A stretch of DNA of 64,000 nt from assembly GCA_000002445.1 (NCBI GenBank), contig CH464491.1, positions 5,088,001 to 5,152,000 on the forward strand. Reading direction: 5' to 3'. Below, one piece after another: positions 46,301 to 49,300 of this stretch. Origin of the DNA: Trypanosoma brucei. Its lineage: Eukaryota. How positions within the stretch are numbered: the first letter of the stretch is position 1; the number at the start of each line of letters is the position of its first letter. The position numbers were made by a program.

Positions 46301-49300
46301 GCTTGTTGCTTTCAAGTGTTTGAAGGCCTAGCGCTAGGTTTTTTAGCGGGGGTATCCAGGTTAGTTGTTCTACTATAGGCTGTGCCTTGCTTGCGAAGCC
46401 GCTGAACTCTAAGCATACGCCTTGCGCTTTGTTGCCGTCACATTTCGAGCTTGCGAACTGTCCTAGGTATGCGTTGCTGGTGTCTTTGTGTATGAGGTCG
46501 TTGAGGTTAGCTATGGCGGCTAGTATTTCTGTGCCGGTTATTTGTCCTGCGTCAAACGGACATGATTTTGCTAGCTTGCCTAGGTTCGCTGCCGTTACCC
46601 CGGTCGCGAATGTGCTGGCGGCTTCCCAGGTGCCGCCGTCGGCCGCCTGTACGCAAACTGCTGGGTCTACATTGTTTGTGCCTCTAAAGCAGACGCATGT
46701 GAGGGCTTCCAGGGCTGTTGCCGGGTTGCCGTTGCCGCCTGCAGCTTTGCATACCGAGTCCCTTGTGCCTGTTGTTGTGCCTGTAAAAACCTTTGATGGG
46801 TCTGGGTTGCTTGCTGGCTTTGCATTTTCTCCGTATACGGCTGTTGCTATGGTTTCTTTTGCCGTGTTATCCTTGGGTGCGTCGGACGGTGGTTGTATGC
46901 TCTGCAATTCTTTCGCCAGCTCGTGCGCTCTTGTTCTAATGTGCTTTAAGTGATCCCGGGCTAGAGTTTCTTGGTCTTCGGTTAGTTCCATTATGCCCGC
47001 CTGGTTTTTTTGTCCCCCCGTCGTTGCTTCCAGTTTTTTGGCGGCGATCTTTGTCCACCGAGGCCAGTTTTCTTCAAACCCTCTGCCATCCTGGCCCGCT
47101 GATTTTGGGTTATCGTGCGTTTTCTTCGCAGCTTTGTCGCTGTAAAACATTTCTTGCCAAGATCCTGTTGCTGCTGAAAAATTTACCATGTGTATGTAGT
47201 CCAGGTCGTCTTCTGGCATAGCCGGTATGGTCGGTATCTCTACTTCGCGCGGTGCCATCGCCACGAATTTGCACAAAGCCGCGTGTTCCTGGCGGTTGGC
47301 TCCGCCCACAATGTCTGTCCCTTCTGTTTTCGTCACTAACCAAAGCACAATCGTCATTGGTAGCATTATTGCGTACATTTCAGCGGTCTCTGTGGTGAAA
47401 CCTTGTGTTGTTGACCTTTATTGTGTCCATATAATATGCAGATGTTGTTGTTAAAAAAATCAGCTTATCTTTGGGGTATACTTTGTCTTAAACAGAAAAG
47501 TAATTAGCGTGGTCACCTAGCCGTGCTCTCGACCCTTGGTTGTTAACAGCTACACTCGTGCCAAAACGCTGTTATTTCTTTTATTTTGACTTTATTTTGT
47601 GACGGTGCCGAGATCAGCGCTGGTAGTGTGCTCACCAACCACATGTACTCATCCTCAGCAATGTGGTGTAAAACAATAAGGTTAGGATTACTTTCTAAAA
47701 ATCTATCTAGTGGCCTTTGTAAATGCATGACATAACGACAATCTTGCATATACACTGTTAATAAACTTTCAAATTTCAATTTACTCCTTATAACATCTCC
47801 AACTATAATATCTTCATTAAGTGCTCTAAAATCGATATAGGTTTTGAAATCTCTGAATTTAATTGGTGACTTTATTAATTTTTTCAGTGCTTCATAATCA
47901 ACAATTGCCATAACTACATACCTAGATAAAGTGGACGCATAACCTATCGTGTGCCATGTAATTTCATCACTAAATTCTTTAGGATATCCAACAGCTCTCC
48001 CCATATTCAATTTTTCTCTTGGAAGCAGCTCTAGATATTTTAGATACAGTGGCACTCTCATAAAAATATCATCATCTGCTTTCATAATATAAGGATTAGT
48101 TGTTTTGAATATTTCAACTTCAAATTTGAATTACAAATATGTATTTCTACTCCTAGTGAGTTCTGCCTCCCAGCCCCAATTACCCGCATCTCCAACTTCT
48201 TTATCTGTTGTAGGGTTCACATCGCACACGGGTAAAATAATAACATCCTGATATAAATACCCTTCTTCTCCAAGAACTTCTCTTAGCTCACAATTGTTAT
48301 TTGTGTGAGGTGAAAGAGCATATATTACAAGAAACTTTCCAGTAAAATTATTTACCTTTCTCGCCACTTCGGGATAACTCCAACACGTGTCTCTCTGTAA
48401 ATTCCTTCTTCTGAACCTTTTATCATTATCTATCGAAGGTATTCCAACTACAACCAAATAATCTTCAGTTTTCCAAATCCTCCTAACATCTTGCGAAATA
48501 AATTTCATATACTTATCTTCAACAATATCTAGTGAAATGGATTCACCTTCATTGAACAAGCCATAGAGTGACACACACAAACTGATGCACATAAAAATAA
48601 AAGGTAAACAACATACTGCTGCATAGATACATCTTATATAATTCAGAAAGCACTATTACCATACTAACGGAAACTTTGAAATACTTACTAAATGATAAAA
48701 ACCTGAGAATATGAAGTCGTTTGCAGCACAAAGGTGTTTACATAAGTAATACCTTGATATACTTATGATATGGCTATTGAACGGTGTATGCTCAGTGCCT
48801 GCAGCTTACGGTTGAGCACGTGTGTACGGTTTCTTTTTCAGTCGTAAGATGCGGGCACATCTATGGAGTCACAACTACTTTCATTCCGCAGTTTTTTGTA
48901 TACATATTTCTATTCTATACGCTGTTATGTGAATTTTTGTAACCAGTTACACCGATGTGTACAAAGGATAGTAAGAATTTTACCAACATCCTGTGATAAC
49001 TACCCTATTCACCGTATTTCATTATCAAAATCTTTTCACCTTAGATAGATAAACTACAGTTACTACTATTTCTTCCACCATTTCTGCAGTTACATCAATC
49101 TGCTTTTTTGTAAAATGCGCGCATGATCGGTTTATCATGTATAACTTTCTTTTTCACTGGCCTCTTTCACATTCTTTTGATTCTCTGCTATGCTTTCCTT
49201 CATTTTTTGAATACTGCTCCCCTCGCTGCGGATAAGTTAGCGAGTTTATTTGGCTTATACACTGGACTATTTCCAACTATGATTGTCGACTCTGTCATCT

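What the first reader, a model, noticed from the sequence alone, without database searches (positions are those of the whole stretch)
47893..48312. About 420-bp tract of near-identity (3 mismatches) between the two GT31 copies, flanked by about 80-85% identity: footprint of recent gene conversion carrying the stop codon
47893-48312 and 62583-63002 are almost identical, including the TAA and the DDD motif region. Sequence on both sides differs at many positions (for example EGESISLDIVEDKYMKF versus EGDTISLDIVEDEYMRF; distal halves below 70% aa identity). This is a local homogenisation, and it coincides with the shared lesion.
Basis: seen in the sequence. Interest (0 to 1): 0.5.

Follow-up and report, generated by a model that had tools for sequence, protein, structure and literature searches.

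The report
Gene conversion between two trypanosome pseudogenes
Two broken copies of a sugar-transferase gene, 14.7 kb apart in a Trypanosoma brucei surface-antigen gene array, share a 419-bp patch that was recently copied from one to the other (or from a third copy) and carries the same premature stop codon; this is real, but it is an ordinary kind of event for this part of this genome.

Summary
The window is T. b. brucei TREU927 chromosome 11, inside a VSG array. It contains two GT31-type glycosyltransferase pseudogenes on the minus strand, 14,688 bp apart. They align without gaps.

- **Tract:** 47891-48309 pairs with 62579-62997. It is 419 bp with 3 mismatches (99.3% identity).
- **Flanks:** 72-86% identical, with dS 0.55-0.71 and dN/dS 0.22-0.36. 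Tract dS is 0.012.
- **Chance:** no permutation out of 100,000 reached the observed run length.
- **Conservation is excluded:** third codon positions differ at 1/140 sites in the tract against 58/190 in the flanks. A T. equiperdum homologue is 78% identical to the tract, the same as to the flanks.
- **Changing genealogy:** informative sites (copy1=copy2 : copy1=Teq : copy2=Teq) are 36:37:25 in the 5' flank, 90:2:1 in the tract and 10:14:16 in the 3' flank.
- **Stop codon:** the shared TAA (48131-48133, 62819-62821) replaces TGG (Trp), which is kept in both T. equiperdum DNA copies and in five TREU927 paralogous proteins.

Donor and direction are unresolved. This is a clean example of a known process, so interest is low to moderate.

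The parts
47543..48646 (-). GT31-type glycosyltransferase pseudogene, copy 1. The start codon is lost (CTG at 48644-48646, where copy 2 has ATG). There is an in-frame TAA. The C-terminus ends with the family-typical ...FWHECSC.
   Evidence: Translation. tblastn with TREU927 paralogues gives 66-68% identity. The two ORF halves match old annotations Tb11.1830 and Tb11.1840 exactly. PF01762 scores 17.5 bits, below the 23-bit cut-off.
62222..63334 (-). GT31-type glycosyltransferase pseudogene, copy 2. The ATG is kept, the same in-frame TAA is present, and the C-terminus is divergent and extended (...WSEFSCHKLQ).
   Evidence: Translation. tblastn gives 65-70% identity. The two ORF halves match Tb11.0730 and Tb11.0740 exactly. 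PF01762 scores 16.1 bits.
47891..48309 (-). Near-identical tract in copy 1: 419 bp with 3 mismatches to copy 2. This is the inferred gene-conversion tract. The minimum converted core is 47921-48293, 373 bp with 1 mismatch.
62579..62997 (-). The same tract in copy 2 (offset +14,688).
48131..48133 (-). Shared premature TAA in copy 1. It replaces the conserved Trp codon TGG, a change at two bases.
   Evidence: TGG in both T. equiperdum copies; W in all five TREU927 paralogues.
62819..62821 (-). The same TAA in copy 2.
48068..48076 (-). DDD (DXD-type) motif codons in copy 1, inside the tract. The copy 2 equivalent is 62756-62764.
   Evidence: The motif is invariant in the family alignment.
48310..48480 (-). 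Zone of intermediate similarity on the 5' side of the tract (86% copy1-copy2; informative sites 24:8:14). It may be the remnant of an older exchange between the same two lineages.
48481..48646 (-). The 5' end of copy 1, which groups with a T. equiperdum copy rather than with copy 2 (83% against 72%; informative sites 12:29:11). This is a separate mosaic segment.
   Evidence: (run of 17, reached in 16 of 10,000 permutations).
47720..47890 (-). 3' flank of copy 1, with a star-like genealogy (copy1-copy2 80%, copy1-Teq 82%, copy2-Teq 84%; informative sites 10:14:16).
   Evidence: At protein level P0012 gives the same picture.

Best explanation
A recent non-reciprocal, short-tract ectopic gene conversion took place between the two directly oriented GT31 pseudogene copies, which lie 14.7 kb apart in a silent VSG array on T. 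brucei TREU927 chromosome 11.

The inferred mechanism is as follows. A DNA break or lesion in one copy was repaired by homologous recombination, using the roughly 80%-identical paralogue as template. This is the synthesis-dependent strand-annealing type of repair, dependent on RAD51 and BRCA2, as shown experimentally for VSG mosaics. About 373-419 bp was overwritten, and no crossover occurred. The junctions fall in short identical blocks (47891-47919 and 48295-48309).

The copied patch already contained a TAA nonsense codon derived from TGG, so both copies now carry the same lesion. Since the event, about three point substitutions have accumulated: one in copy 1 and two in copy 2.

What is shown: the tract, its statistical significance, identity at synonymous sites, the change of genealogy along the gene, and the derived state of the stop. 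What is inferred: the repair pathway, that the exchange was directly between these two loci, and that the stop was absent from the recipient beforehand.
For: - **Tract against flanks:** 3 mismatches in 419 bp against about 21% mismatches in the flanks. No permutation out of 100,000 matched this.
- **Synonymous sites:** dS is 0.012 in the tract against 0.55-0.71 in the flanks. Third-position differences are 1/140 against 58/190.
- **Not a slow region:** the tract is 78% identical to T. equiperdum locus L001, the same as the flanks (76-84%).
- **Informative sites** (copy1=copy2: copy1=Teq: copy2=Teq) are 90:2:1 in the tract against 46:51:41 in the two flanks combined. Grouping sites as copy1=copy2 versus the other two patterns (90:3 against 46:92), Fisher's test gives p = 3e-25.
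- **GENECONV-like test:** a run of 65 concordant polymorphic sites, reached in 0 of 10,000 permutations.
- **Protein level:** the copies are 98% identical in the tract but 74% and 65% in the flanks. There, other TREU927 paralogues are as close or closer: P0001 82%, P0002 83%, P0012 74-79%.
- **Derived stop:** TGG or Trp is found at this site in every other family member examined.
- **Flank history:** dN/dS of 0.22-0.36 and no indels across about 1 kb show that the copies diverged under coding constraint.
- **The three differences in the tract** are singletons. In each, one copy keeps the state seen in the T. equiperdum copy, as expected for mutations after the conversion.
- **No crossover:** both copies and the 14.7 kb between them are still present.
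- **Published mechanism:** templated RAD51/BRCA2-dependent gene conversion in T. brucei needs about 100 bp of imperfect homology and leaves the donor intact (PMC13233330).
Against: - Direction and donor could not be determined.
- A third TREU927 copy on the same chromosome (P0012 = Tb11.1160) is 89-91% identical in protein to the 3' part of the tract. Its annotated ORF also starts at MKADDD. It too may therefore be truncated upstream, possibly by the same stop. If it carries the same TAA, the stop may be older than this event and may already have been present in the recipient.
- DNA of the other TREU927 paralogues was not available, so the family-wide test used only two T. equiperdum DNAs and protein sequences.
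- The assembly could not be checked against reads.
- A published family-wide analysis states that T. brucei genes of the expanded lineage 'rarely recombine' (PMC5853035).
Confidence: 0.72

Rival explanations
1. Third-party donor. Both copies, or only one of them, were converted by a third TAA-bearing GT31 pseudogene elsewhere in the genome. On this reading the two window copies never exchanged sequence directly.
For: The family is visibly a patchwork. The 5' end of copy 1 groups with a T. equiperdum copy (29:12:11; run of 17, reached in 16 of 10,000 permutations). A further related copy, Tb11.1160 (P0012), exists on the same chromosome, and its ORF starts at the same MKADDD. In T. brucei, donors can be used whatever their genomic position (PMC13233330).
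Against: For both copies to be recipients, two independent events would need nearly identical end points (47890/47891 and 48309/48310 in both). No protein closer than 89-91% to the tract was found in two database searches, apart from the window's own ORFs.
Confidence: 0.15
2. Reverse history. The two copies are young duplicates, and the tract is the only surviving part of that duplication. Both flanks were later overwritten by conversions from other diverged paralogues.
For: The flanks do have mixed affinities. The 5' end of copy 1 resembles the T. equiperdum copy, and the 3' flanks are closer to P0012 than to each other. The neighbouring VSGs are unrelated (26% aa identity), so the surrounding cassettes have clearly been reshuffled.
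Against: This needs at least two extra events, with end points that leave a clean central block. No intact TREU927 paralogue is more than 83% identical to either flank at protein level, so no recent donor for the flanks is known. Sequence outside the pseudogenes shows no sign of a recent duplication (45-66% identity). This is still gene conversion, with a different polarity.
Confidence: 0.07
3. Assembly or consensus artefact. Reads from one paralogue were used to build the consensus of the other across the most similar stretch.
For: The loci are repetitive and subtelomeric, and no read-level data could be examined here.
Against: The source is the finished TREU927 reference. From my own knowledge, this was built from Sanger reads, which are longer than the 419-bp tract and would anchor it in the diverged flanks. 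Three singleton differences remain inside the tract. A block that is 20% diverged would not collapse by accident with such sharp edges.
Confidence: 0.04
4. Purifying selection. The tract is the conserved catalytic core and simply evolves slowly.
For: It contains the DDD motif, and 67 of the 147 family-invariant alignment columns scored across the three segments fall in the tract.
Against: Synonymous and third-position sites are also identical (dS 0.012 against 0.55-0.71). The same region is only 71-78% identical among other family members at DNA level. It also contains a nonsense codon.
Confidence: 0.01

Closest known systems
Segmental (mosaic) gene conversion among VSG genes and pseudogenes in T. 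brucei (PMC3708902; PMC13233330)
   Same: The organism and the genomic compartment are the same. Both involve short templated patches copied between diverged paralogues (about 80% identity here), junctions in short stretches of identity, no crossover, and pseudogenes taking part.
   Different: The genes here are glycosyltransferase pseudogenes, not VSGs. Both partners are silent array copies, and the change is fixed in the reference genome rather than arising in an active expression site during infection. The patch (about 370-420 bp) is longer than the roughly 46-bp average insertions reported after Cas9 breaks. No antigenic benefit is evident.
Concerted evolution and subtelomeric expansion of UDP-glycosyltransferase (GT31 / beta3GT) genes in African trypanosomes (PMC5853035)
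   Same: The gene family and the subtelomeric setting are the same. That study reports that paralogues cluster by species in the expanded lineages 1 and 7.
   Different: That study analysed intact genes. It concluded that T. brucei genes of the expanded lineage rarely recombine, and it did not mention pseudogenes at all (0 occurrences). Here a specific tract with mapped end points is shown between two pseudogenes.
Spread of inactivating mutations by interlocus gene conversion, for example human CYP21A1P to CYP21A2 (from my own knowledge, not tested here)
   Same: A nonsense lesion is moved between paralogues inside a short conversion tract.
   Different: It is not known here whether the recipient was functional. 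There is no phenotype, and the organism and genomic context are different.

Membership tests
Interlocus (ectopic) gene-conversion tract | A contiguous run of identity much longer than the pair's overall divergence predicts | tested here: met
   A 419-bp run with 3 mismatches. The maximum in 100,000 permutations was 171 bp.
Interlocus (ectopic) gene-conversion tract | The identity extends to synonymous sites, so it is not explained by selection | tested here: met
   dS is 0.012 against 0.55-0.71. Third-position differences are 1/140 against 58/190.
Interlocus (ectopic) gene-conversion tract | The genealogy relative to other family members differs between the tract and its flanks | tested here: met
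   Informative sites are 90:2:1 in the tract against 36:37:25 and 10:14:16 in the flanks. The GENECONV-like test gave 0 of 10,000. Protein-level comparisons with P0001-P0005 and P0012 agree.
Interlocus (ectopic) gene-conversion tract | Diverged sequence is kept on both sides and there is no crossover product | tested here: met
   Both flanks are diverged. The two direct-repeat copies and the 14.7 kb between them are still present.
Interlocus (ectopic) gene-conversion tract | An identifiable donor and recipient (the transfer is non-reciprocal) | not testable with these tools
   This needs the DNA of all TREU927 paralogues and the orthologous loci of other strains. The third-sequence comparison was uninformative (5 against 8 sites).
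GT31 / Galactosyl_T (PF01762) glycosyltransferase | A match to PF01762 above the gathering score | tested here: not met
   The window copies, with the stop replaced by W, score 16.1 and 17.5 bits against a 23-bit cut-off. Paralogue P0001 scores 28.3 bits and passes. Family assignment therefore rests on 64-72% identity to T. brucei proteins that carry PF01762.
GT31 / Galactosyl_T (PF01762) glycosyltransferase | A DXD metal/nucleotide-sugar binding motif | tested here: met
   DDD lies at 48068-48076 and 62756-62764 and is invariant in the family alignment.
GT31 / Galactosyl_T (PF01762) glycosyltransferase | An uninterrupted coding sequence, meaning a functional member | tested here: not met
   Both copies have an in-frame TAA at the conserved Trp codon, and copy 1 also lacks the ATG. 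Both are pseudogenes.
RAD51/BRCA2-dependent templated repair (the mechanism of VSG mosaic formation) | Dependence on RAD51 and BRCA2, with a DNA break as the trigger | not testable with these tools
   This is inferred only by analogy with PMC13233330.

The most novel reading that the evidence does not exclude
The GT31 pseudogenes may be more than bystanders. In all four loci examined (two in the window, two in T. equiperdum), a GT31 pseudogene or fragment lies a few hundred bp upstream of a VSG. In cassette 1 and in L001 it sits downstream of the 70-bp-type repeat. The pseudogene may therefore be a co-transposed part of a particular class of VSG cassette. The two cassettes in the window also look telomere-derived. 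Its roughly 1 kb of 80%-identical sequence could act as an upstream homology block that guides recombination between such cassettes. On that reading the 419-bp tract would be a by-product of this pairing. It would also mean that inactivating lesions can spread through the dispersed GT31 family by conversion.
Probability: 0.1. Interest if true: 0.5.

Novelty: new member of a known kind. Interest (0 to 1): 0.25.

Why it matters
This is a clean natural example, with mapped end points, of short-tract homeologous gene conversion between silent, non-VSG sequences in a T. brucei subtelomere. It shows three things:

- The recombination that builds mosaic VSGs also acts on passenger genes in the arrays.
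- It works at about 80% identity over a few hundred bp.
- It can copy a nonsense mutation from one paralogue to another.

This matters for how GT31/UGT family trees and pseudogene counts are read, because trees built on whole genes would be misleading for these copies. It does not reveal a new kind of system.

Tried and rejected
- **DNA of TREU927 paralogues.** I tried to fetch it for a full family test. The look-up of encoding contigs had no record for P0001, P0002 or P0012, for the two window VSGs, or for two of the window's GT31 half-ORFs. Only two T. equiperdum loci could be retrieved. The other DNA collections hold phages, plasmids, E. coli, viral contigs, metagenomes and prokaryotes, so I did not use them.
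- **Incomplete protein search.** The first protein search missed the window's own ORF halves and P0012. A second search with only the tract found them. The protein search is therefore not exhaustive.
- **Old decayed donor.** I tested whether the tract came from a long-decayed pseudogene by looking for excess changes at family-invariant residues. There was no enrichment: 4/67 in the tract against 10-11/80 in the flanks, p = 0.17-0.26.
- **Direction of conversion.** I tried to infer it from P0012. The result was uninformative, at 5 against 8 sites.
- **Whole-cassette duplication.** The two VSGs next to the pseudogenes are only 26% identical, so the cassettes were not recently duplicated as a unit.
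- **Structured RNA.** An Rfam scan of 44000-64000 found nothing. There is no ORF of 100 aa or more on the plus strand under the tract.
- **Mobile-element insertion.** Rejected, because the tract is colinear with GT31 homologues throughout.

Full report
**What the window is.** The window is a silent VSG array of Trypanosoma brucei brucei TREU927, chromosome 11.
- The ORFs at 45798-47378 and 60490-62010 (minus strand) are exact matches to VSGs XP_829789.1 and XP_829791.1. Both carry the Pfam domains VSG_B and VSG C-terminal.
- The window also holds other VSG_B ORFs, TAA-rich 70-bp-type repeats, conserved VSG 3'UTR 16-mers and a reverse transcriptase/RNase H ORF.
- tblastn with T. brucei glycosyltransferase paralogues finds exactly two GT31-type loci, both on the minus strand: about 48646-47543 (copy 1) and 63334-62222 (copy 2).
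- Their ORF halves were once annotated as Tb11.1830/1840 and Tb11.0730/0740.

**Checking the observation.** The two copies align without gaps at a constant offset of 14,688 bp from about 47650 to 48640.
- Between 47891 and 48309 (419 bp) there are three mismatches, at 47920, 48086 and 48294. The next mismatches are at 47890 and 48310.
- The flanks are 79% (47650-47885), 86% (48313-48480) and 72.5% (48481-48640) identical.
The second is 2 bp out of register.
- The TAA (48131-48133; 62819-62821) and the DDD codons (48068-48076; 62756-62764) lie inside the tract.
- In 100,000 random placements of the 123 mismatches, the longest run with 3 or fewer mismatches was 171 bp, against 419 observed. Fisher's test gives p = 3e-27.

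**Conservation does not explain it.**
- Nei-Gojobori estimates give dS = 0.71 (5' flank), 0.55 (3' flank) and 0.012 (tract).
- Third codon positions differ at 1/140 sites in the tract and 58/190 outside it (p = 6e-15).
- I retrieved two homologous DNA loci from T. equiperdum: L001 and L002. L001 is 78% identical to the tract and 76-84% identical to the flanks. The tract region therefore evolves as fast as the rest of the gene.

**The genealogy changes along the gene.** Informative sites in the triplet of copy 1, copy 2 and L001 are given below as copy1=copy2: copy1=Teq: copy2=Teq.

| Segment | Informative sites |
|---|---|
| 48481-48646 | 12:29:11 |
| 48310-48480 | 24:8:14 |
| 47891-48309 (tract) | 90:2:1 |
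| 47720-47890 | 10:14:16 |

- Comparing the tract with the flanks by Fisher's test gives p = 3e-25.
- A GENECONV-style permutation test on four sequences gives a run of 65 concordant polymorphic sites for copy1-copy2, reached in 0 of 10,000 permutations. A weaker second signal links copy 1 to L001 in the 5' end, with a run of 17 reached in 16 of 10,000 permutations.
- At protein level the copies are 98% identical in the tract. In the flanks they are only 74% and 65% identical, and other TREU927 paralogues are as close or closer there: P0001 82%, P0002 83%.
- A third chromosome-11 copy, P0012 (Tb11.1160), is 74% and 79% identical to the two copies in the 3' flank, where they are only 66% identical to each other.
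- These pseudogenes are therefore mosaics, and the 419-bp tract is the most recent patch.

**The stop codon.**
- Both copies have TAA where both T. equiperdum DNAs have TGG and where all five TREU927 paralogous proteins have Trp. The stop is derived and needed two G-to-A changes.
- Apart from this stop, copy 2 is open from ATG to its stop codon. Copy 1 has also lost its ATG, which is now CTG at 48644-48646.
- The flanks show dN/dS of 0.22-0.36 and no indel in about 1 kb despite about 20% divergence. The two lineages therefore diverged while still coding. A stop inherited from their common ancestor is hard to reconcile with this.
- The tract shows no excess of changes at family-invariant residues (4/67 against 10-11/80), so it did not come from a long-decayed donor.
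- The simplest history is that the nonsense codon arose in one lineage and was carried into the other within the tract.
- The three remaining differences are singletons. In each, one copy keeps the state found in L001. This fits one later substitution in copy 1 and two in copy 2.

**Mechanism (inferred).** T. brucei repairs breaks in diverged paralogues by RAD51/BRCA2-dependent templated gene conversion. This needs about 100 bp of imperfect homology, uses donors anywhere in the genome and leaves the donor unchanged (PMC13233330).
- The present tract fits that process: it has diverged flanks on both sides, junctions in 29-bp and 15-bp identical blocks, and no deletion of the 14.7 kb between the direct repeats.
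- At 0.7% divergence, the tract is much younger than the copies. It is also less diverged than the non-coding DNA of T. b. brucei and T. b. gambiense, which differs by 4.6% (PMC2854126). If the tract has evolved neutrally, the event post-dates that split. This is an inference.

**Rival explanations.**
- A third-party donor cannot be excluded, because the DNA of the other TREU927 copies was unavailable. Tb11.1160 is the obvious locus to check.
- Overwriting of both flanks of a young duplicate needs more events and has no known donors.
- An assembly artefact is unlikely for the finished reference, given the three internal differences, but it was not tested.
- Selection is refuted.

**Comparison with what is known.**
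- Glycosyltransferases are a recognised minor component of T. brucei subtelomeres, at 1.1% of subtelomeric genes (PMC2854126).
- The UGT/GT31 family is reported to have expanded there, with concerted evolution of paralogues. The same study judged that T. brucei genes of the expanded lineage rarely recombine, and it never mentions pseudogenes (PMC5853035).
- Segmental conversion among VSG pseudogenes is textbook knowledge (PMC3708902; PMC13233330).
- This finding is therefore a well-resolved new instance of a known process in a non-VSG passenger gene. It is of modest interest.
- Membership of GT31 rests on homology to T. brucei proteins that pass PF01762. The window copies themselves score below the Pfam cut-off.

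Noticed in passing
window 45489-45565 and 60166-60263 (also 44815-44937): Only the two VSGs that have a GT31 pseudogene upstream are followed by TTAGGG-type telomere-repeat stubs, about 150-230 bp past their 3'UTR 16-mer. The first stub is degenerate and the second has eight perfect units. The five other VSG 3'UTR 16-mers in the window lack this, although a small TTAGGG patch (44815-44937) lies about 0.6 kb beyond the first stub. Both GT31 pseudogene-VSG-(TTAGGG)n cassettes look like former chromosome ends that have become internal.
   Followed up: partly
window 47378-47543 and 62010-62222; L001 5272-8240; L002 1017-2990: In all four loci examined, a GT31 pseudogene or fragment lies a few hundred bp upstream of a VSG_B gene. 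In cassette 1 and in L001 the 70-bp-type repeat lies upstream of the GT31 pseudogene (window 49401-49532; L001 4449-4501). The downstream VSGs are unrelated to one another (26% aa identity). This appears to be a recurrent cassette type in which the pseudogene would travel with the VSG.
   Followed up: partly
window 48481-48646 compared with L001 about 5310-5475: The 5' end of copy 1 is closer to a T. equiperdum GT31 pseudogene (83%, locally 89%) than to copy 2 (72%). This is a second, older mosaic segment. The 48310-48480 zone is intermediate (86% between the copies).
   Followed up: partly
window 48644-48646; 62222-62248: Each copy has a private lesion. Copy 1 has lost its start codon (CTG in place of ATG). 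Copy 2 has a divergent C-terminal region of about 30 residues and reads past the family's usual ...SC stop by four codons (…WSEFSCHKLQ).
   Followed up: no
P0012 = Tb11.1160 (CAJ17095.1), TREU927 chromosome 11, outside the window: This is a third member of the same GT31 sub-lineage, sharing the GYPKEFSDE.TWHTIGYASTLSR signature. Its annotated ORF begins at the same MKADDD as the post-stop ORFs of the two window copies, and it goes out of register after DMQDCRY. It may carry the same or a nearby upstream lesion.
   Followed up: partly
window 54860-57400 (+): An 846-aa ORF with reverse transcriptase and RNase H domains, a retrotransposon ORF, lies between the two cassettes.
   Followed up: no
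window 40186-40400 and 14809-15035, 17672-17767, 21238-21472, 31279-31417: There are long TAA/TAT-rich repeat tracts, the 70-bp-repeat type found upstream of VSGs. The one near 40.2 kb is an almost pure (TAT)n run of about 200 bp.
   Followed up: no
L001 about 5500-5900: The T. equiperdum GT31 copy is itself a pseudogene, but with different lesions: in-frame stops, and a 1-bp insertion relative to the window copies. It keeps TGG at the site of the window's TAA. The copies were therefore inactivated independently.
   Followed up: partly
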